Positions 4,832 through 17,725 of a stretch of 46,520 nt of DNA are shown here, in pieces. A program made the translations under genes and the position numbers. Position 1 is the stretch's first letter. Every line of letters begins with the position of its first letter. This stretch comes from Candidatus Sigynarchaeum calidifontis (GTDB taxonomy: Archaea > Asgardarchaeota > Lokiarchaeia > Sigyniarchaeales > Sigyniarchaeaceae): NCBI GenBank assembly GCA_030587475.2, contig JAUQYZ020000256.1, forward strand, positions 1-46,520. The letters are read 5' to 3'. The notes below the pieces were generated by a model, which was not told the origin of the DNA, did no database searches, and saw only the letters and a program-made list of their open reading frames with translations.

Positions 4832-5014
4832 CGGTCACCATCTTTCGTGCGGGCACGGCAGTGATGCGATCTCATGCTCGCCGTCGAAAAACCATCCATT
4901 GGACCAACGCTTACTTCCCCCCCAGAGAAATAAAATGCTTGTGTCAAATCTCGAATCGACCGATGCTAAGGAGTAAAACCCGCTTTTATATCCAATGCTC
5001 GGTACTGGTGACTC

Positions 5015-5665
5015 ATGGACGAATACATCCGTCCCACCTACTTCATCGACTTTGAATCGCCCGCCGTCGCGCGTGCAGCGCGGGAGACCGTGGCCGGCCA
5101 CGATCCGGCCGACAAGGCTGGCATGGCAGTCAAGCTGTTCTATTTCGTCCGCGACACGATACCGTACCGCGTCATTTGGGGCCTGCCAACCCGAAAGTAC
5201 CTGAAAGCGAGCGAGACGCTCTCCCGGGGTTATGGATTCTGCATACCAAAGGCGACACTGCTCGTGGCACTGGCAAGGGCAAACGGCATCCCTGCACGGC
5301 TCCACTTTGCCGATATCATCAACCATCTCGCCTCCGACAACTTGCAGAAGGTTATGGGCTCGAAGCTGTTCGCGTTCCACGGCTATGCCGAGTTGCTGCT
5401 GAACGGCACGTGGTTCAAGGTCAACCCCGCGTTCGACCTCGCGCTCTCCGAGGACAAGGGCTATTTTCCCGTCGATTTCGATGGACGGCGTGACGCGGTC
5501 TTCCAGAAGACCGACAAGCTCGGCAACCCGCATTTCGAATACGTGCTCGACCGCGGCACGTACGCTGATGTCCCCTATAAGGAGATCATCGACACGTGGA
5601 TCGAGAAATACGGGGATGCATTCTTCAAATTGCAACCAAATCCCAAGGACTTCCAGCATTCTTGA
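5015..5665 (+). CDS. transglutaminase-like cysteine protease family protein
   Basis: KLFYFVRDTIPY, ASETL..GYGFCIPKATLLVALARANGIPARL (catalytic Cys), FHGYAE (His), WFKVNPAF. Confidence 0.88.
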   Translation: MDEYIRPTYFIDFESPAVARAARETVAGHDPADKAGMAVKLFYFVRDTIPYRVIWGLPTRKYLKASETLSRGYGFCIPKATLLVALARANGIPARLHFADIINHLASDNLQKVMGSKLFAFHGYAELLLNGTWFKVNPAFDLALSEDKGYFPVDFDGRRDAVFQKTDKLGNPHFEYVLDRGTYADVPYKEIIDTWIEKYGDAFFKLQPNPKDFQHS

Positions 5666-5674
5666 GCGCGGCTT

Positions 5675-6358
5675 TCACTCGAAGGGCTGGAAATCGGTCG
5701 TGGGCACCTGGAAGATTTCCCAGACAGGCGCGGCAGACTCGTTAACCTTAGAGATGGCCTTCATCAGCTGCGCCCGGTATTGCTTCGGGATGTCGCCTAG
5801 CATCGGGATGATGTTTTCCCCGCTCGATGCCAATTCCATGAGGGGCAAGCACCATTTTTGCGGGACCTGGGCGTACATGGCCTCGATGAGGATGAGTTTT
5901 TGATAGAGCTCGAAGGTCTCTTGCATGTATTTTTCCAGGATCGTCTGGATCTCCGCGTTGAAGCCGTCGAACGTGGCACTCTTGAAAAACTTGGCCTTCT
6001 TGCCTGCGGCAAGCTCTTTCTCGTAGCGTTCCTCGAACCGCTCCGTGATTTCGGAGGCGAAGCCAGAAAGCACTGGCTCGGTCATGGCTCCGAGGGGCAT
6101 GGCATAATCGATGATGAGAACGGTGAAGATGTATTTCCCGGCCGTGTACCTTGCTTCCAGGGATCCAGACCGGATCAGCGATACGCCTGCTGGAAACCCG
6201 ACATCATTAGCAAAGTTGTTGAGGGCAGCAAGGAATCCAGAAATGAGCTGGTCTTTTTCCTCGTTTTTTTCACCGAGAATATCGAACGTGACGAGATTGC
6301 TTCCCTCGTCCTTGGTGATAACGTAAATCTTGACGCGTGGTTCCCCGCAGATACTCAT
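5675..6358 (-). CDS. Asgard-type longin/roadblock-like domain protein
   Basis: 227 aa. IYVITKDEG...DQLISGFLAALNNFANDV...SLIRSG...FTVLII...ITERFEERY follows the 'LISGFLxAxxxF' longin-like pattern common in Asgard proteomes. Fold is inferred. Confidence 0.6.
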   Translation of the reverse strand: MSICGEPRVKIYVITKDEGSNLVTFDILGEKNEEKDQLISGFLAALNNFANDVGFPAGVSLIRSGSLEARYTAGKYIFTVLIIDYAMPLGAMTEPVLSGFASEITERFEERYEKELAAGKKAKFFKSATFDGFNAEIQTILEKYMQETFELYQKLILIEAMYAQVPQKWCLPLMELASSGENIIPMLGDIPKQYRAQLMKAISKVNESAAPVWEIFQVPTTDFQPFE

Positions 6359-6509: not shown

Positions 6510-7556
6510 ATGAGAGAACATGCAAGCCTGGCGGGCGAGCTGGAGCAGGAGCGCCATCCATTGTCCAGGACATTCTTGCGCGATCACGGCTATGCTGCAG
6601 CTGCCATCGACGATTACTATGCGATCCTTGGCCGGTTCCGCGATCGCTTTCACCCCGCAGATCAGCAGGCTCCAGACCCCCGCGAGCTGTACGTCGAAGC
6701 ACCCGACGGGGCCCGCATCTTCGTGCAAGAGTTCATCCCGGAGCATCCCCAGGCCGTCGTCATCGGGCAGCCGGGCAACAATTGCCAGTCCGATCTGTAT
6801 TACCCGCTGGCCGATCACCTCTATCCGAAAGGTATCGGTCTCGTGGCCGTCGACAATCGTGGCCATGGGCGTAGCGGGCCAGGACGCGGGAAGTTCAACA
6901 AGCCAGCCTTGATGTTTCCCGTCTACGATGCACTGGTGGAGCGGTTCGCTGCAAGCGGCGTGCCCGTGCACGTGCTCGGGGAAAGCCTGGGCACGACGAT
7001 GTTCGCCTCCTACATCGCGAGTGGCTCGGCCGCTTCGAGGAAAGTCGCGTCCGCGATCTTTCTCGTGCCCCCGTACAAGCTCCGGCGCCAGCAATTGCTC
7101 GATCGGATCAAGTGGCTCGCCAAGCTCTTGCTCTGGCTAGGACGCGCGTTCACGCTCGACCGGCCGGTGCTCGCGTTCAAGCCAGACCTGCGGCCAACCT
7201 ATTTTCCCGAGTACCACGAGATAGACGCGAGCGATATCATAAGGGCACCGAAATCGACATTGGTGCATTTACTTTGCGTGCTCAAGCAAATCGAACGGTT
7301 CCATCGTGATATCAAGGCCATCACGATCCCGCTTCTCGTGCTCGCGGGTACGGGCGACAAGGATCTCGACCCGGCCGGCGCCGAGCAGTTATCCCGCGAA
7401 TCAAATAGCGTGAACCTTGCCTTGCACATGTACGAGAACGCCGACCATAGTCTCATGTTCGACCGCAACTCGCAAGGATCCTACGACATGATCCTCCGGT
7501 GGGTGCAAAATGGGTGGCGCGTGCGACATTCTAATACTTCTACCCCGAATATCTAA
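6510..7556 (+). CDS. alpha/beta hydrolase, lysophospholipase/monoacylglycerol lipase-like
   Basis: DNRGHGRS, nucleophile elbow GESLG, PLLVLAGTGDKDLD (Asp), YENADHSL (His). Confidence 0.88.
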   Translation: MREHASLAGELEQERHPLSRTFLRDHGYAAAAIDDYYAILGRFRDRFHPADQQAPDPRELYVEAPDGARIFVQEFIPEHPQAVVIGQPGNNCQSDLYYPLADHLYPKGIGLVAVDNRGHGRSGPGRGKFNKPALMFPVYDALVERFAASGVPVHVLGESLGTTMFASYIASGSAASRKVASAIFLVPPYKLRRQQLLDRIKWLAKLLLWLGRAFTLDRPVLAFKPDLRPTYFPEYHEIDASDIIRAPKSTLVHLLCVLKQIERFHRDIKAITIPLLVLAGTGDKDLDPAGAEQLSRESNSVNLALHMYENADHSLMFDRNSQGSYDMILRWVQNGWRVRHSNTSTPNI

Positions 7557-9685
7557 TGAGTGTTCGATCCATGAGCGACGACGATCCCGCTTGGGACGAG
7601 TTCTTGCGGGAACTCGCCCGGAAGACCAAAAGCAAGGGCAAGAGAGACGGCACGCGCCGTCTCGATTTACCAACCGCCCTCAACAACGCAATCGTCCGGC
7701 CCGAGATCTTCCTGCTACACGGCATCCACGGCAACATCCTCTTTCCTGACGTGGGTTATTGCGAGTTCGACAACCCCGCGAGTGCATGGCAGCACATCCA
7801 CGCCTGGTCCGACATGGCCATGCGAGCCAAGGGTGATCCAGCATCGTGGCGAGGCTGCTTCCCGGTGGGATTTGAAATCGGCATCGCGTCGCTGGAGGAG
7901 CTTTCAAAAAAGGAGCCCGTCTGGCCGCTGTTCAAGGAATGCGGGATCGAGATCATCAACCCGCTATATTCCCAGCCGTACTTGCGCCACTGTGGAGAAG
8001 AGTCCACGATCCGCCAGTTCGAGGTTGGTTTAGGCATCATGGCGCGTAACGGGCTCGTGGCGAAGGTGTTCGCGTCCTCCGAGCACGCGCTGCACCCGCA
8101 ATTACCGCAGTTACTGAAAGGTTTCAAGATCGGTCTCGCGTTCGCCACCGCTAGGCTTGCCGGCGGCGCGCCGACCTCCTACCAGCCGAAGGTCGAGTGG
8201 GAAGGGCTTGACGGGACGACCATTCCGGCCATCGTGGCACAGTCCGGGCTTTCCAGCGGCCATGTCTGGCACGGGCGGTTCTTCGAGGAGATCCCGGGCT
8301 TGATCTTCAGCGCCGTGTCGCGGCCGGACCTCCCAGCCGTCGTGTATGCCAACATCGAGGACTTCGCGAACCCCATGCCAGGCTCCGAGGCCATCGCGAA
8401 CCACGTCGCAGAACTCGAGCGCGCCCGCATCCGACTGCGCGGCTTTTCGAGCATGGCCGATATCCTGCCGCTCAGCCGCCGCGCCAGGTGGTCCATCGAG
8501 GACTTTCCGATCCGCTCGATGGAGTCCAAGCTGGTGCATCTCGTTCGCCGGTGCGAGGATTTCATGGTTCTCGCCGAGGCCGCGGACGTGCTTCTTTCCG
8601 CGTTTGGTTCGCCCACGCACGAGACACAGCTCGATGAAGCATGGCGGCATCTGCTCATGGCACAGAACCACGATGCTTACATCGTCCCGTTCATCGTTCC
8701 CGGGTTGTATTCAGAGGTCCAAGGCCTCCCGGACGGGAACCCGTGGACGAGCGAGGAGACCATCGAGGAACGCAGCATCCGCGAGGTCGAGGTCGCCACG
8801 AGCATCGCGCGCTCGGTGCTCGATGCCACGACCGGGATCGACGATGAAACCAGAAAAATAGCCATTAGAGGCTCCAAGGCTGGCATTGCGATGCTCAACA
8901 TGCTCTGGGATCGGGAGGAGATCATTGGTGGTCTCAAATATACATTGCCGTCGGCGGGATACGCTTCAATTGGTACACCATTCAAGAGTAACGCGAGCTT
9001 GACATTTGAGGGTCAAACGGCAATCATTTACGGCCGCAAAATCGAGATCGGTGACCGTGCATTCCCCGTGACACGAAGCAGCGAGGGCATCGTCATGGAC
9101 GCGGGCAGGTACAAGGCGGTGCTCAAGGACGCGGGAAGCCGCATCGAGATCCATCTCGTGAACCAGTCACCCCTGGAGATCTCGGTCGAGGCCCAGAGCA
9201 AGGTGGTCATCACGTACCCGTTCGGCGCCGAGCCATCGACCGAACGCGAGGGCCATTCGAGCCGGTTCGCCTGGATCGATGATACCCTCGTGATCGCCCA
9301 CAACGGAACGCCATACTTCAAGCAAAGCCCGGGAAAATACAAGATACGTGTCCCAGCTGGCGAGCACGCGTATTGCATCGCGAAAGCGACGTGCCTCCTC
9401 GACGCATACAAGCGGGCGTGGGAATTTGCGTATCCCCCGGTCCCGTTCTCGCTGCCCGCGGGGAGCCCTCCCGAGGGAAAATTCGCCCGCATTGCTTTCG
9501 AGGGCTGCGTGCCCGTATCATTCCGTGCGAGGGGCGGTTTGTGCAACGCTCGGTTCTTGAGCATCGATGGATCGGAACCCATTATCGAAGGTGGCGCGGC
9601 AGTGGATTTTTACGGGCAATTGTCCAAGCATGATCCCGTGCCGTGGCGCATCATGAATTTCGAGCTCCCCATCTCGTTAAAGTAA
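7556..9685 (+). CDS. glycoside hydrolase with GH57/GH38-like N-terminal barrel and helical middle domain
   Basis: HGNILFPD, IEIINPLYSQPYL..GEESTIRQF..G, SSEHALHPQLPQLL.GF, EWEGLDGT, AWRHLLMAQNHDA. The start overlaps the upstream stop (TAATG). Confidence 0.7.
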   Translation: MSVRSMSDDDPAWDEFLRELARKTKSKGKRDGTRRLDLPTALNNAIVRPEIFLLHGIHGNILFPDVGYCEFDNPASAWQHIHAWSDMAMRAKGDPASWRGCFPVGFEIGIASLEELSKKEPVWPLFKECGIEIINPLYSQPYLRHCGEESTIRQFEVGLGIMARNGLVAKVFASSEHALHPQLPQLLKGFKIGLAFATARLAGGAPTSYQPKVEWEGLDGTTIPAIVAQSGLSSGHVWHGRFFEEIPGLIFSAVSRPDLPAVVYANIEDFANPMPGSEAIANHVAELERARIRLRGFSSMADILPLSRRARWSIEDFPIRSMESKLVHLVRRCEDFMVLAEAADVLLSAFGSPTHETQLDEAWRHLLMAQNHDAYIVPFIVPGLYSEVQGLPDGNPWTSEETIEERSIREVEVATSIARSVLDATTGIDDETRKIAIRGSKAGIAMLNMLWDREEIIGGLKYTLPSAGYASIGTPFKSNASLTFEGQTAIIYGRKIEIGDRAFPVTRSSEGIVMDAGRYKAVLKDAGSRIEIHLVNQSPLEISVEAQSKVVITYPFGAEPSTEREGHSSRFAWIDDTLVIAHNGTPYFKQSPGKYKIRVPAGEHAYCIAKATCLLDAYKRAWEFAYPPVPFSLPAGSPPEGKFARIAFEGCVPVSFRARGGLCNARFLSIDGSEPIIEGGAAVDFYGQLSKHDPVPWRIMNFELPISLK

Positions 9686-11174: not shown

Positions 11175-11813
11175 ATGAGCGACTCAAAAATCGACGTGAC
11201 GATTGGCCTCGTCGGGGATGATCACGTGTTGAGCCTTTTCAACATTCAAACCGACGATGACTTGAAGCAGAAGTTCCAGATGGTGACCCCGACCGAATGG
11301 AAGGACGTTTTTCGCATCAAGGTGAAAAATTATGGGGTTGTCGGGGACACGACGCGTGAGTTGCTCAAGAAGCTCAACGGCAGCTTCAACGACACGATCA
11401 CGACCATGGACTATGCCATCGTGCTGATCGGCACGAACGACGTGTTGCTCGGTGTGCCAATTGACGAAATCGTGCAGAACCTCCGTGACATCTTGTCCAT
11501 CATCAACAAGAGCAACGTGACCCCGATCTTTTGCACGCTGCTCCCGATATCCCGAGAGGAGTACTCGCAAACCGTCGCGGACATCAACAGCATGATGACC
11601 ATCTTCTGTGCCAAGGAGCGATTTAACGTGTTTGACCTCAACCTTGCCTTCAACAATGGCGAGGACATGCTCGAGAAGTTTTATGATGTCGGCGATGGCA
11701 TCCATCTCACGCAAGACGGGCTAATGCATCTCGCGGACAACTTGCTGCTGCGCGTGCTGGAGGTCATCGCCGCCGAGTTCGAGGAGTTCCAGGGTGGGCT
11801 TGCTTCTGAATAA
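11175..11813 (+). CDS. SGNH/GDSL hydrolase-fold protein lacking the catalytic Ser
   Basis: Block II NYGVVGDTT, block III LIGTND and block V DGIHLT are present, but block I reads GDD instead of GDS. Confidence 0.8.
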   Translation: MSDSKIDVTIGLVGDDHVLSLFNIQTDDDLKQKFQMVTPTEWKDVFRIKVKNYGVVGDTTRELLKKLNGSFNDTITTMDYAIVLIGTNDVLLGVPIDEIVQNLRDILSIINKSNVTPIFCTLLPISREEYSQTVADINSMMTIFCAKERFNVFDLNLAFNNGEDMLEKFYDVGDGIHLTQDGLMHLADNLLLRVLEVIAAEFEEFQGGLASE

Positions 11814-11917
11814 GAGACCCACGCCTTTCCCACGTTTCCTTGCATTCCTTTCCAAGCCCGCACGTGCCTTCGATTTCGAATCCCGGCCGTAGTACGATTC
11901 CTAGCAAATTCGCTAAC

Positions 11918-11923
11918 TTTAAG
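11918..11923 (+). promoter_or_regulatory. TATA-like box upstream of the candidate ncRNA
   Basis: TTTAAG in an AT-rich stretch, about 50-60 nt before the GC-rich structured block. No credible + strand protein gene follows. Confidence 0.35.
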
Positions 11924-11970
11924 AAGGAGAATTTTCCTACATATTACCAGACAGAAATCACGTTCGCAAT

Positions 11971-12120
11971 CCAAGCGGGCAGGCTCGCACTCGATTCCGA
12001 GTGGCACGCTTGGGAACAAGTCTGGGTGCCGGGCGGCAGCCCCCGGGTATCCGCGGGCTGACACGTATTCACGGCTCCCCAAGGCTGGAACATGCCTTGA
12101 AAAAGCTGGCCGCGAGCCCC
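11971..12120 (+). ncRNA. candidate structured non-coding RNA of unknown family
   Basis: Hand count about 67% GC versus about 36% upstream and about 23% in the 30 nt downstream. Closing stem GGCTCGC 11982-88 / GCGAGCC 12112-18 encloses four hairpins, one with a GGAA tetraloop. Followed by a T-tract. Confidence 0.5.
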
Positions 12121-12130
12121 TATTCTCTGA

Positions 12131-12149
12131 TTCTTTTTTTTTTGCTTTT
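12131..12149 (+). terminator. oligo-T archaeal terminator-like tract
   Basis: TTCTTTTTTTTTTGCTTTT just downstream of the structured block. Confidence 0.55.
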
Positions 12150-12320
12150 GCTAAGGCCGATTCTCGACATGTTCCAGCTGGAACGAACGCGTTTCCTTCA
12201 TATTCCTGCACCAGAAAAACTATGGTGCAATGCATTGCGTTCTTCCGACCAAATTAAGCAATCGTGCACCACGCTACGCGGTTCTTTTTACTTGCGGATC
12301 GGGGGGCTTCGCGACGCGTG

Positions 12321-13052
12321 TTACTTGACACGTTCCCAGACTTGTTTTCCTGCAGACTTGTAGATCAGTCTCGTGTCGTCGATATCGAGGACTTCGAATC
12401 TCGAAAGCCCCTCCCGCGTGACGACCTTTCCGCTTATCGTGTAATTCCCGCTCGTCGAGTATTCCTTGTCCAGCGTTTGTAATTCGGTATACGTGCCATC
12501 CGGCCGGTATTCCGCGACCCATTTTTCACAAGCGACGACCTTTATCTCCATACCACCCGTGTCATTGATCGTGTGCACGTATTTCCATTTACCGACCAGA
12601 AATCTCGCGATGTCTTCTGGTTTGATGTCTTTCGCGGGTGTTGTTGCTGCCGGCTTGGGTACTGCAAGTTGGGCTTTTGGGAATTTGGAGGTGTCCCACA
12701 GGAAGTCACCTTGCACGATCAGTTTTTTTCCAGCACGATCCTCAAGCTCCATCGTGGCCTTGAAAAAGCCGAACATGGTCGGGACTTGCTTGTTCATGAA
12801 GACCTGCTGCGTGGTTTCTCCCGAGTAGTGCTCGGAGAAGGTCTTGCCGTCGTGCTTCTTAAGCACGACCGTGAATTTTTGTGCGCCCTGGGTGTTGGTC
12901 GCCTCGGTGACATCCATCATCCAGTAATCGTCCTTGATGCGCAATTTGAGAAGCAAGTATTTCGGGGTGGCATCGACCACGACATCGCCCTCGAAGCTTC
13001 TCACGGGAATCCCGTTGACCGTGCCATTGAATAACGCTGGTTGTGGTGGCAT
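12321..13052 (-). CDS. two-domain hypothetical protein with C-terminal lipocalin-like beta-barrel
   Basis: 243 aa: unknown beta-rich N domain, Pro/Ala/Thr linker (VPKPAATTPAK), then LVGKWKYV...YRPDGTYTE...SGNYTISGKVV...FEVLDIDDTRLIY, resembling lipocalin-like domains. Confidence 0.6.
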   Translation of the reverse strand: MPPQPALFNGTVNGIPVRSFEGDVVVDATPKYLLLKLRIKDDYWMMDVTEATNTQGAQKFTVVLKKHDGKTFSEHYSGETTQQVFMNKQVPTMFGFFKATMELEDRAGKKLIVQGDFLWDTSKFPKAQLAVPKPAATTPAKDIKPEDIARFLVGKWKYVHTINDTGGMEIKVVACEKWVAEYRPDGTYTELQTLDKEYSTSGNYTISGKVVTREGLSRFEVLDIDDTRLIYKSAGKQVWERVK

Positions 13053-13130
13053 GCGTGTTCTCCTCTATTTTGATCAGTCCTGTTATCCAAGGTCTTCCTT
13101 GAACTGTGAAAAATCATAAAAAGGAGGGAA

Positions 13131-14282
13131 TTAATACGTGGACCCATAGTACTTCGTGAACAGCTTGCCTATCACCTCGTCGTTCACGAGAGGTTTTATC
13201 GCCTTGTCCCAGATCCCCTTGTTCGTGTGCAATTCGTTCATGGCGAGGCGCAGCTTGTCCTTGTACTTGTTGATGAACTCGATCGACCAGGGCAGCCCAG
13301 TATTCTGCGTGATCGTGCGCGGCGCCCACTTCGCCAGCCAGGTCTCTATAAGCCGCTCCGACCACGGGAGCGACGGGTTACCCGACAAGCCCGAGAGGCG
13401 CCATTCATCCCGCCCGGTACTTTGCCATATCCATTTCTTTTCGTATTTCTTGATGAGATCCTCGGTGAACGGAATCGAGGTATTTCCGCTTAATTCCCAC
13501 CAGTCCAACTTTTCCGCGTACGTGGCGATGAACTGTTCTGTCCAGGGGAAATTGCGGAGCTTGCTCATCCGGTTGAGATAGAAAAAGTCCTTGTACTTGT
13601 TGTATAAGTCCAACGACCAGGGCAAGCCTTCGTTCGCGCTTAGCTTGTCCCACGCCATCGGCGCTGCTTGATGGGTCTTGAACTCATCCAGCTCCTTATC
13701 GGTCCACTTCATGCCCTCCGCCTCGGTCAGGTATAACAAGTCGATATCCTCGTTGCCCGTGCCTTTTCGCACGCGGTCGATTATGTCCCTTGTCCACTTG
13801 ACGCCGGGATTGAGCCTGATATGTTTCCATGACAGCTTCTTCCCGTACGTGATCAAGATCTCCTCGGTCCATTCCACCGACGGGTTCTGGCTCAGCTCCA
13901 CGAAGTCAATCTTATCGGCATACTTGTCGATCATCTCCTTCGTGAACTTGATACCCGGGTTGGAGCACAAGTAGTTCCAGCGCCAGTCATTCTTGAAGAG
14001 ATCGATCATCTCTTGCTCTCGACCTGCGAACACCTTCGGATTGGCGCTTAGATCATCCCACGGGATCTTAGTCTTGTATTTGGTGATGAATTCCTTTGTC
14101 CAGTCCATTGTCACGTTCTTACACAGCTCGTCCCAGTTGATCGCGCCATCGGAGGACTTCCCGAAGTGCTTGGTGAGCACGTCATCCGTTAATGGATAAT
14201 ATCGGAGGAGCATGCGCTTGAAGGCACGCTTATTGTCCTTTACAAAACTATCGAGGAGAGCGAATTGTGAATCTTCGGCCAT
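13131..14282 (-). CDS. tryptophan-rich ~25-aa tandem repeat (solenoid) protein
   Basis: 383 aa with roughly a dozen repeats of consensus W..LS.N..(L/I).W(T/S).E.I.KY..K, e.g. LDWWELSGNTSIPFTEDLIKKYEKK and IDFVELSQNPSVEWTEEILITYGKK. Confidence 0.8.
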   Translation of the reverse strand: MAEDSQFALLDSFVKDNKRAFKRMLLRYYPLTDDVLTKHFGKSSDGAINWDELCKNVTMDWTKEFITKYKTKIPWDDLSANPKVFAGREQEMIDLFKNDWRWNYLCSNPGIKFTKEMIDKYADKIDFVELSQNPSVEWTEEILITYGKKLSWKHIRLNPGVKWTRDIIDRVRKGTGNEDIDLLYLTEAEGMKWTDKELDEFKTHQAAPMAWDKLSANEGLPWSLDLYNKYKDFFYLNRMSKLRNFPWTEQFIATYAEKLDWWELSGNTSIPFTEDLIKKYEKKWIWQSTGRDEWRLSGLSGNPSLPWSERLIETWLAKWAPRTITQNTGLPWSIEFINKYKDKLRLAMNELHTNKGIWDKAIKPLVNDEVIGKLFTKYYGSTY

Positions 14283-15766: not shown

Positions 15767-17725
15767 ATGAAGACCCCTTTTTTCCAAAACCGTAAAATTT
15801 GGATGTGGCTGCTGGCCATCGGCATCGCCCTTGGAGTCACGTCCGCGCTCGTTTTCTTCCTTATCCCCCAGGTCAACACGGTCACGTTTCAATCGATAGC
15901 CTATGGCGTCACGGCTGAATACTTGATTTACGGCCTTTTCATCGGTGGTCCGATCGCGCTGTTCTCCATCTTGTTTGGCGTCGCGCTCGGGTCGACGATC
16001 AAGAAAAAGGAATGGACGTTCCAGCGGCCCCGCAGCCGCGCGTGGCAAGTGTTCTTGATCCTCTGGATCGTGTTCTTTGGCCTATACTGCAGCGTTTACG
16101 TGTACATGCTGCCGAAGGCGATCGGCTTTGAAACGGTCTTGGTCGAGATGTCCGACGGGACCCGGTTGAACACGGTCATCTACCGGCAGAACACGTGGGA
16201 AGCCCGCCCGGTCGTCCTGTTCCGCACGCCGTACGGCAGCATCACGTCGAAAGGCTCGGTCGACGATTACGTGGAGCTCGGCTTCCACGTCGTCGTGCAA
16301 GACTGTCGTGGCTGCCCGCCGGTCATCCGCGGCATCATCGACGAGCACCTCTCCGAGGGAACCTTCATCCCGTTCATCTACGACGTGCTCGACGGCAACG
16401 ACACGATCAACTGGATCGCCGCGCAGCCGTGGTGCGATGGCCGGGTCTTCATGGCAGGCGGTTCCTACCTTGCCTGGACGCAATTCGCCGCGGCGCTCGC
16501 TCGCCCGGCGGCACTCCGTGCCATCACCCCGATCGTGTTCGGGTCCACGCCGTACGATGCTGCTTACTGCAACGGCATGTTCCAGCAGAACCTGGCAGGG
16601 CTGTGGCTGCTACTCATGAGCGAGTGCTACGGGAACGGCGTGAACGCACTCGCCGACTTCGCGCCGCCCTTGTCGGCCCTCGATGGCCTCGCGTGCTCGG
16701 GCGGGTTCGAGTACTGGGACCAGGCCTTGAATCATTCCTTGCCGGGTGCGTTCTGGCAGCTGCATGGTGTCCTTTCCGGCATGGACCGCATCGAGGTCCC
16801 CGTGTACCAGGAGCTCGGATATTTCGATTATTTCGCATGGACTGGCATCCGTGATTTTAAAAAGTTGTCGGCGCGCAGCGACTATGCAGCGAATCACTCG
16901 GTCCTGGTCATAGCCCCGCACGGCCACGGGGGCGTCCCCAAAAGCCTGATCAGCGCGGAACCGTTGTCGCGATACTCGTCGGACAAGGATGCCAAGCTTT
17001 TCCTCGCCGCCGCGGCGAGTGGCACGTTTCCTTCCAGACAAGTCCGCGCTTACATCGTCGGGGCGAACACGTGGCTCAACGGCACGACGTGGCCGCTCGC
17101 GGGCACCACGAACGTTACATACTACCTCCGCACGGGCAAGGCACTTAGCACGACCGCGCCAGCAGGGGCCGAGCCTGCCGACACGTTCACGTACAACCCC
17201 CTGACCACGATCAATTACGTGAGCGCGGGACTCGAGTGGGGCGATTGGGCGGACCATGCCGTGATCACCAGGCAAGCCGACTCGATCGTATACGAGCTTC
17301 CTGTCGGAAGTGGCGGGCTTGCGCTTTGCGGGCAGATCGGGATCCACTTGAACGCCACGTCGAACTGTACCGACACGGACTGGGTCGTCGAGGTGCTCGA
17401 CCACGATCCCGCGACGAACAAGTCGATGTTCTTGTGCCACGGGTTGATGCGCGCCGCCGCCCGCAACATGGGCACGACGCTCGAGTATTTAACGCCCGGC
17501 CAGTCTTACTTGTACAGGTTCGACAGCTGGCCCATCGGTGCCTATTTCAAGCCCGGCCACGTGCTCCAGCTCGTGATCCGGTCATCGAAATATCCATACT
17601 ATGCCAAGAACTTCAACGTCATGAACACGTATTTCAACAACTCGATAGCAGTCGCGTTGAACACGATCCACCATTCTGCCGCGAGCCCGAGCTATATTAC
17701 CCTGCCCGTGATCGCGCTCCCGTGA
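15767..17725 (+). CDS. membrane-anchored CocE/NonD family hydrolase
   Basis: Three N-terminal hydrophobic segments, then MSDGTRL, LFRTPYG, VVQDCRG, GGSYLA, GYFDYF, APHGHG, and a C-terminal jelly-roll (DTDWVV...FKPGHVLQL). Confidence 0.88.
   Translation: MKTPFFQNRKIWMWLLAIGIALGVTSALVFFLIPQVNTVTFQSIAYGVTAEYLIYGLFIGGPIALFSILFGVALGSTIKKKEWTFQRPRSRAWQVFLILWIVFFGLYCSVYVYMLPKAIGFETVLVEMSDGTRLNTVIYRQNTWEARPVVLFRTPYGSITSKGSVDDYVELGFHVVVQDCRGCPPVIRGIIDEHLSEGTFIPFIYDVLDGNDTINWIAAQPWCDGRVFMAGGSYLAWTQFAAALARPAALRAITPIVFGSTPYDAAYCNGMFQQNLAGLWLLLMSECYGNGVNALADFAPPLSALDGLACSGGFEYWDQALNHSLPGAFWQLHGVLSGMDRIEVPVYQELGYFDYFAWTGIRDFKKLSARSDYAANHSVLVIAPHGHGGVPKSLISAEPLSRYSSDKDAKLFLAAAASGTFPSRQVRAYIVGANTWLNGTTWPLAGTTNVTYYLRTGKALSTTAPAGAEPADTFTYNPLTTINYVSAGLEWGDWADHAVITRQADSIVYELPVGSGGLALCGQIGIHLNATSNCTDTDWVVEVLDHDPATNKSMFLCHGLMRAAARNMGTTLEYLTPGQSYLYRFDSWPIGAYFKPGHVLQLVIRSSKYPYYAKNFNVMNTYFNNSIAVALNTIHHSAASPSYITLPVIALP

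What the first reader, a model, noticed from the sequence alone, without database searches (positions are those of the whole stretch)
11918..12149. Candidate stand-alone structured ncRNA (four-hairpin junction, possible switch) with its own promoter and terminator signals
Seen: a 150-nt GC island (about 67% GC by hand count) in the 500-bp gap between convergent genes, preceded by TTTAAG (11918) and followed by a T-tract (12131-49). Hand pairing gives: P1 GGCTCGC 11982-88 / GCGAGCC 12112-18; P2 CACTCG 11988-93 / CGAGTG 11998-12003; P3 GGCAC 12003-07 / GTGCC 12026-30, extended by GCTTG-GGAA-CAAGT (GNRA loop); P4 CAGCCC 12037-42 / GGGCTG 12055-60 with an inner CGG-GTAT-CCG; P5 CGGCT/AGCTG plus CAAGGC 12080-85 / GCCTTG 12094-99. 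A leader CCAAGCG (11971-77) is perfectly complementary to CGCTTGG (12007-13) and is mutually exclusive with P3, as a conformational switch would be. On the minus strand a 7-bp closing stem stacks on a terminal hairpin, a tRNA-like geometry, but the TTC and GG signatures are absent. I cannot match it from memory to tRNA, 5S, SRP, RNase P, H/ACA or common riboswitches. Inference: an undescribed archaeal ncRNA. Caveat: GC-rich DNA folds easily and alternative folds exist.
Basis: partly seen in the sequence, partly recalled or inferred. Interest (0 to 1): 0.72.

Follow-up and report, generated by a model that had tools for sequence, protein, structure and literature searches.

The report
Pseudoknotted small RNA of Asgard Sigynarchaeum
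This is a real, separately encoded, folded RNA of about 185 bases, found so far only in one genus of Asgard archaea and matching no catalogued RNA family; it most likely folds into a knot-like shape rather than the switch first proposed, and its job is not yet shown.

Summary
The element is real and longer than reported: a single-copy, stand-alone RNA gene of about 185 nt (about 11948-12133, + strand) in Ca. Sigynarchaeum, with BRE/TATA and a T-tract. Seven distinct homologues were found, all apparently in this genus. The RNA is more conserved (80-88%) than the neighbouring protein gene (74-83%). Two metatranscriptome contigs (one study) cover 11962-12127, a weak hint of transcription. There is no Rfam match. 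It fails tests for tRNA, 5S, SRP, HDV-like ribozyme, Y RNA and RNase P RNA. Notably, no RNase P RNA was found in any of four Sigynarchaeaceae genomes that keep its proteins. Best guess: a trans-acting, protein-binding RNA. The scan holds no look-alike on other DNA but has noted other undescribed Lokiarchaeia RNAs.

The parts
11892..11908 (+). Conserved element upstream of the promoter (possible factor-binding site)
   Evidence: Kept in all 8 upstream regions aligned, while the spacer further 5' diverges; function inferred
11912..11925 (+). BRE plus TATA box
   Evidence: Conserved at fixed spacing in all homologues; nearly the same promoter precedes another RNA candidate on contig C208
11948..12133 (+). 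Inferred RNA gene, about 185 nt (start 11946-11950 inferred from TATA spacing)
   Evidence: Conservation block; metatranscriptome contigs cover 11967-12127 and 11962-12120
11953..11965 (+). 13-nt single-stranded segment, apparently dispensable
   Evidence: Missing at the same distance from TATA in G001 (end of L040); that copy lies at a contig end
11971..12013 (+). Leader helix 11971-80 / 12004-13 (pseudoknot stem 1)
   Evidence: 48 of 49 cells paired over its outer 7 bp; 3 pairs with double-sided changes
11982..12118 (+).
   Evidence: 54 of 54 cells paired, one G-C to G-U change; near-invariant, so covariation support is thin
11989..12002 (+).
   Evidence: Refolds in every homologue despite sequence and length changes
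12014..12023 (+). Nearly invariant linker; its 3' part can pair with the RNA's 5' end
   Evidence: Alignment A4; 27 of 27 cells pairable but no double-sided change
12024..12079 (+). Central helix 12024-26/12077-79 plus 12028-31/12072-75 with a U-U mismatch, enclosing the hairpin 12037-12060
   Evidence: 98% of cells paired, G-U changes only; inner hairpin has a double-sided change in L048 and A-U to G-U in the RNA contigs
12080..12099 (+). Invariant 6-bp hairpin with an 8-nt loop, followed by an A-run
   Evidence: 48 of 48 cells paired, no variation in the stem; loop varies at two positions
12131..12149 (+). T-tract, probable terminator
   Evidence: Present in all homologues that extend that far
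11175..11813 (+). Upstream GDSL/SGNH hydrolase gene (positional neighbour only)
   Evidence: Pfam; precedes the RNA in 7 loci but is followed by other genes, with no RNA, in L046 and in more distant relatives

Best explanation
A separately transcribed, trans-acting structured RNA of about 185 nt. Shown: gene-like layout, purifying selection, and several helices. Inferred fold: during transcription the leader helix (11971-80/12004-13) forms first and leaves 11982-88 free; when the 3' end appears, 12112-18 pairs with it and closes a pseudoknot that clamps the whole molecule, with the central helix and two hairpins hanging from the long loop. Inferred function: it works as a folded shape that binds a protein or protein complex (scaffold or decoy) through its near-invariant unpaired parts (12014-23, the loop 12086-93 and the A-run 12100-03), not as a leader of a neighbouring gene. 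My odds: real RNA gene about 0.9, pseudoknot as main fold about 0.7, protein-binding role about 0.5.
For: Single copy in the genome. Seven distinct homologues. RNA 80-88% identical against 74-83% for the end of the adjacent coding gene, 43-71% for the upstream spacer and 46-48% downstream in four of five. Conserved promoter and T-tract; downstream gene differs in identity and direction. No reading frame stays open in all homologues. Leader-helix fold lowest in energy in 6 of 7 full-length copies before any pseudoknot energy is added. Two RNA-library contigs of 160 and 164 nt lie on 11962-12127 with three differences, two in loops and one A-U to G-U.
Against: Only 8 close sequences of one genus; kin are not independent and the model was chosen after seeing the alignment, so the shuffle counts are not probabilities. 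The pseudoknot's second stem is almost invariant, so the crossing itself is not shown by covariation. In this genome nested folds without the leader helix are about 3 kcal/mol lower. No protein partner was identified; no Ro60 or reverse transcriptase was found in G000 or G001. The RNA contigs come from one study, have no DNA control, and cannot show strand, ends or level.
Confidence: 0.5

Rival explanations
1. Two-state RNA: segment 12003-13 alternates between the leader and a second partner, controlled by a ligand, a protein or removal of the leader.
For: The helix 12003-08/12105-11 has one double-sided change. In G000 the three folds lie within about 3 kcal/mol.
Against: Neither alternative beats shuffled controls; pairability rests on G-U wobble against invariant strands. 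There is no fixed downstream gene to control, and a T-tract follows directly.
Confidence: 0.13
2. Base-pairing small RNA or guide that targets another RNA through a single-stranded part.
For: It has conserved unpaired stretches. An inverted 10-nt copy of the invariant hairpin's loop region lies at 12168-77 here and in L034.
Against: No C/D or H/ACA boxes are conserved. The longest unpaired part is missing in G001. Best complementarity to SRP RNA and four other candidate RNAs is 9-11 nt including G-U, which looks like chance. rRNA targets could not be tested: no 16S was found in this assembly.
Confidence: 0.12
3. It is the unrecognised, strongly reduced or rearranged RNase P RNA of Sigynarchaeum.
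For: RF00373 finds RNase P RNA in 31 of 35 genomes of two sister families but in 0 of 4 genomes of this family; three further RNase P models also fail. All four keep Pop5, Rpp21 and Rpp29 and none has HARP. tRNA genes seem to carry short leaders. This lineage appears to permute its 5S gene. The RNA has a pseudoknot and short stretches reminiscent of CR-I, CR-V and the P5/P15 junction (my reading, from memory).
Against: No P4 helix with the bulged U in normal or permuted order; even minimal type T RNAs keep it (PMC3579882). No similarity to a profile of 19 Lokiarchaeia RNase P RNAs, also when doubled. The CR-V-like motif is missing in G001. The loop triplet that could read the tRNA CCA end is changed in the RNA contigs. 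Not detected in the other two genera of the family. The four genomes are 63-89% complete.
Confidence: 0.07
4. Self-cleaving ribozyme of HDV-like topology.
For: The order of helices (leader helix, 7-bp helix, small hairpin, leader helix partner, large domain, 7-bp partner) is that of HDV P1-P2-P3-P1-P4-P2 (sequence; architecture per PMC13635239).
Against: The small hairpin's loop is 3-6 nt and variable, so no conserved P1.1; the first helix is 10-11 bp without a 5' G; the linker before the 3' helix strand is not of the catalytic C-purine-A type. No Rfam HDV-type hit.
Confidence: 0.04
5. Not a functional RNA: remnant of a gene or mobile element, or a 5' leader of the next gene.
For: Found in one genus only; absent from the same locus in L046; weak folding z-scores in homologues.
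Against: More conserved than coding DNA, compensatory changes, single copy, conserved promoter and T-tract, downstream gene convergent in this window.
Confidence: 0.06

Closest known systems
raiA motif RNA (bacterial orphan ncRNA; PMC12968392, PMC10861870)
   Same: Stand-alone, compact, pseudoknotted non-coding RNA of unknown function with a conserved core and variable peripheral stems; raiA binds the KhpA/KhpB proteins (section heading).
   Different: No sequence or model match; raiA is in over 2700 bacterial species and has two pseudoknots, this RNA is known from one archaeal genus and one pseudoknot is inferred. An analogy only.
Archaeal RNase P RNA, types A, M and T (RF00373, RF02357; PMC3579882)
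   Same: Size close to type T; long-range pseudoknot; stacked central helix followed by a short hairpin; the family lacks a detectable RNase P RNA.
   Different: No P4 with bulged U, no conserved CR-I/CR-V pairing in any order, no model or profile score.
HDV-like ribozymes (PMC13635239)
   Same: Same order of crossing helices with a small hairpin in the inner loop.
   Different: No conserved L3/P1.1, no cleavage-site G, no J4/2 catalytic C context; twice the size; own promoter and terminator.
Telomerase RNA core and reverse-transcriptase template RNAs (from my own knowledge)
   Same: Single-stranded stretch followed by a pseudoknot, possibly enclosed by paired ends.
   Different: No reverse transcriptase found in G000 or G001; the template-like stretch is missing in G001; end pairing is broken in two homologues.

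Membership tests
Any Rfam family | Score at or near a family's gathering threshold | tested here: not met
   None in the window; only chance-level hits at E up to 10 or 5 on the region and four homologue loci
RNase P RNA | P4 pseudoknot of 3+5 bp with bulged U between CR-I and CR-V | tested here: not met
   Descriptor searches of the whole genome, normal and permuted order, do not return this locus
RNase P RNA | Similarity to RF00373, RF02357, RF00009, RF00010 or a Lokiarchaeia profile | tested here: not met
RNase P RNA | Universal presence where RNase P proteins are kept | tested here: inconclusive
   Proteins present in all four family genomes; this RNA detected in two of them only, model built from close sequences
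RNase P RNA | Cleaves pre-tRNA leaders | not testable with these tools
   Needs reconstitution
tRNA / tRNA-like RNA | Cloverleaf with D-loop GG and T-loop TTC, acceptor ending in NCCA | tested here: not met
   ARAGORN finds nothing; RNA contig X1 runs past the 7-bp helix to at least 12127
5S rRNA (also permuted) | Loop C motif and 5S profile match | tested here: not met
   No hit on the doubled RNA; a 5S-like gene lies elsewhere, on C97
SRP RNA | Helix 8 motif in a 300-nt RNA | tested here: not met
   The genome's SRP RNA is on C173; only a 9-nt match to it
HDV-like ribozyme | Order of crossing helices P1-P2-P3-P1-P4-P2 | tested here: met
   Model
HDV-like ribozyme | Conserved L3 forming P1.1, G at the cleavage site, catalytic C in J4/2 | tested here: not met
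   Loop variable in length and sequence; alignment; features from PMC13635239 and own knowledge
C/D or H/ACA guide RNA | Conserved C/D boxes or kink-turn plus ACA box | tested here: not met
   The only D-box-like and ACA-like words vary among homologues
Y RNA | Ro60 (TROVE) protein in the genome | tested here: not met
   Not found in the four family genomes, 63-89% complete
Cis-acting riboswitch | Fixed place in the 5' leader of a functionally related gene | tested here: not met
   Downstream gene is convergent here and differs among homologues

The most novel reading that the evidence does not exclude
This RNA is the missing RNase P RNA of Sigynarchaeum: a 185-nt catalytic RNA that has lost the otherwise universal P4 signature and works with the retained Pop5/Rpp21/Rpp29 proteins through a different pseudoknot.
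Probability: 0.07. Interest if true: 0.93.

Novelty: new member of a known kind. Interest (0 to 1): 0.52.

Why it matters
The non-coding RNAs of Asgard archaea, the closest prokaryotic relatives of eukaryotes, are barely described; my paper searches found no account of this RNA or of RNase P RNA in this family. This adds an uncatalogued family with a testable fold and a covariance model. I file it as a new family within a known kind (stand-alone structured RNAs of unknown function) because no new function is shown. The work also exposes a sharper question: Sigynarchaeaceae keep RNase P proteins but show no RNase P RNA under four models. If this RNA filled that gap, it would overturn the view that P4 is universal; the evidence here makes that unlikely.

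Tried and rejected
Minus-strand and tRNA-like readings: rejected (promoter, T-tract and G-U changes fit the + strand). Overlapping ORFs 11681-12235(-) and 12001-12363(+): no frame stays open across homologues. Terminal helix 11948-51/12126-29: one double-sided change but broken in L043 and G001 and partly upstream of the likely start; left uncertain. Distant homologues: models R1 and R2 found none in 139 relatives, 150 phylum genomes, or G002, G003, G005; pattern scans of GTDB and viral contigs gave only G001 after profile filtering; a look-alike hairpin in G003 is coding; loci found through the DAGK gene did not carry the neighbourhood. These are 'not found', not 'absent'. RNase P RNA at positions syntenic with sister families: none; a second piece pairing in trans: chance-level hits only. 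BHB intron or circularisation motif, kink-turn, T-arm mimic at 11963-72, T-box-like loop, and resemblances to U6, U5, vault and group I RNAs: considered by eye and dropped; none is conserved or scores. The RNA runs show no cover on the flanking genes, but that is not counted as evidence (contigs, one study, no DNA control).

Full report
Observation. The island is 66.7% GC over 11971-12120, in a 507-nt gap (53% GC) between a GDSL hydrolase gene (11175-11813, +) and a convergent ORF (12321-13052, -). Neither Rfam nor ARAGORN finds anything. The core folds better than shuffles (z -3.2). The closest named relative of the upstream protein is from Ca. Sigynarchaeum springense at 86% identity, so the window is from that Asgard genus or very near it.

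Homologues. The element is single copy. Seven distinct homologues were collected: the same-genus genome G001, a metagenome contig, and loci reached through the upstream gene. In six of them, over the RNA they are 80-88% identical to this copy, against 74-83% for the last 300 nt of the coding gene, 43-71% for the upstream spacer and, in four of five, 46-48% downstream. BRE, TATA, an element at 11892-11908 and the T-tract are conserved. The gene downstream differs in identity and direction. One close locus (L046) and more distant ones have the GDSL gene without the RNA. No homologue was found outside the genus; with a model from eight close sequences this does not show absence.

Extent. Conservation starts near 11948, about 30 nt after the first T of the TATA box, and ends at the T-tract. 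Two contigs of 164 and 160 nt from two RNA libraries of one study lie on 11967-12127 and 11962-12120, with no loose ends and three differences: two in loops and one A-U to G-U. This is a weak hint of transcription: contigs cannot show strand, ends or level, and there is no DNA control. G001 lacks 11953-65 at unchanged distance from its TATA box, so that part seems dispensable; the G001 locus is split over two contig ends.

Fold. Across eight sequences it is no better than shuffled controls, its P3 has no double-sided change and its outer P5 pairs in 62% of cells. The 7-bp helix 11982-88/12112-18 is intact in all eight and starts inside the leader helix, so the two cross. The combined model has 97.4% of cells paired and five pairs with double-sided changes; 1 of 500 shuffles reaches it on three measures. 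A 7-bp second stem with a 0-1 nt first loop is known pseudoknot geometry (own knowledge). Cautions: the model was chosen on this alignment, the sequences are kin (tree), and the second stem hardly varies.

What it is not. Not tRNA. Not SRP RNA, which lies on C173. Not 5S: no hit on the doubled sequence, and a 5S-like gene lies on C97, apparently with its halves swapped (lead from finding e1-3785436). Not a Y RNA or a reverse-transcriptase template: no partner protein was found. The order of helices matches HDV-like ribozymes, but the loop that should form P1.1 is variable and the catalytic context is missing. Not a cis-acting leader.

The RNase P question. RNase P RNA was found in 31 of 35 genomes of two sister families but in none of four genomes of this family, and three other models also fail. 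Yet all four keep Pop5, Rpp21 and Rpp29 and none has HARP. I tested this RNA as the missing subunit. It has no P4 with a bulged U in normal or permuted order, a feature kept even in minimal type T RNAs (PMC3579882). It shows no similarity to a profile of 19 Lokiarchaeia RNase P RNAs. Its CR-V-like word is missing in G001. I give this reading 0.07; the gap itself stays unexplained.

How it most likely works. Shown: gene-like layout, selection on sequence and on several helices. Inferred: it is made from its own promoter; the leader helix forms first, and the 3' end then closes the pseudoknot. The stems tolerate change while the linker 12014-23, the hairpin 12080-99 and the A-run after it barely vary, and no target, reading frame or catalytic motif was found. 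The most likely role is therefore a folded RNA that binds a protein or complex in trans, as a scaffold or decoy (about 0.5). Rivals: two-state RNA 0.13, base-pairing RNA 0.12, RNase P RNA 0.07, non-functional remnant or leader 0.06, HDV-like ribozyme 0.04.

Comparison and verdict. The nearest analogy in kind is the bacterial raiA motif RNA, an abundant pseudoknotted RNA of unknown function (PMC12968392); there is no evidence of kinship. Paper searches found no description of this RNA. The scan's index has no look-alike on other DNA but lists several other undescribed RNAs in Lokiarchaeia and in this genome; these are unchecked notes and are not counted as support. Verdict: a real, uncatalogued RNA family of narrow known range, with a corrected fold and no shown function. 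Interest 0.52.

Noticed in passing
G000, G001, G002, G003 (family f1) and G005 (f3), whole genomes: No RNase P RNA under RF00373 and RF00010 (and, for the four f1 genomes, RF02357 and RF00009), although Pop5 (f1), Rpp21 and Rpp29 are kept and HARP is not found; sister families have it in 31 of 35 genomes.
   Followed up: partly
G000:C97:9830-9949 (+): Probable circularly permuted 5S rRNA gene: the 5' half matches a small 5S profile (E 1e-7) and a plausible 3' half lies directly upstream; reordered it is 119 nt and helix II pairs across the halves. A second loop-C copy lies on the other strand about 290 nt away. Rfam misses both.
   Followed up: partly
G000:C208:7099-7133 (-), locus L002: Nearly the same promoter (83% over 35 nt) precedes another stand-alone structured RNA candidate of about 190 nt with an 11-bp closing stem.
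   Followed up: partly
G000:C207, minus strand, about 16610-16917: Stand-alone RNA candidate of about 310 nt with paired ends; shares a 12-nt word with this genome's SRP RNA. No RNase P P4 seen.
   Followed up: partly
window 12168-12184: A 10-nt inverted copy of the invariant hairpin's loop region overlaps a perfect 14-bp palindrome (12171-84) just past the T-tract; a related hairpin is in L034 but not in the other homologues.
   Followed up: no
window 11874-11888: A tRNA T-loop-like word lies in the spacer upstream of the promoter; it is not conserved in homologues, probably chance.
   Followed up: partly
G000:C212:11601-17719: Array of about 20 tRNA genes on a 17.7-kb contig, while the rest of the assembly yields few convincing tRNAs; may be a mobile element or a binning passenger.
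   Followed up: no
G000:C88:23669-23761 (-): Selenocysteine tRNA gene.
   Followed up: no
L039 (G002:C411:7263-7556): The Pop5 match in G002 contains one in-frame TGA.
   Followed up: no
window 4835-6358, 7556-9685, 12321-14282: Five ORFs of 227-709 aa without any Pfam match; a 705-aa gene sits at the same place upstream of the glycosyltransferase-GDSL pair in related loci.
   Followed up: no
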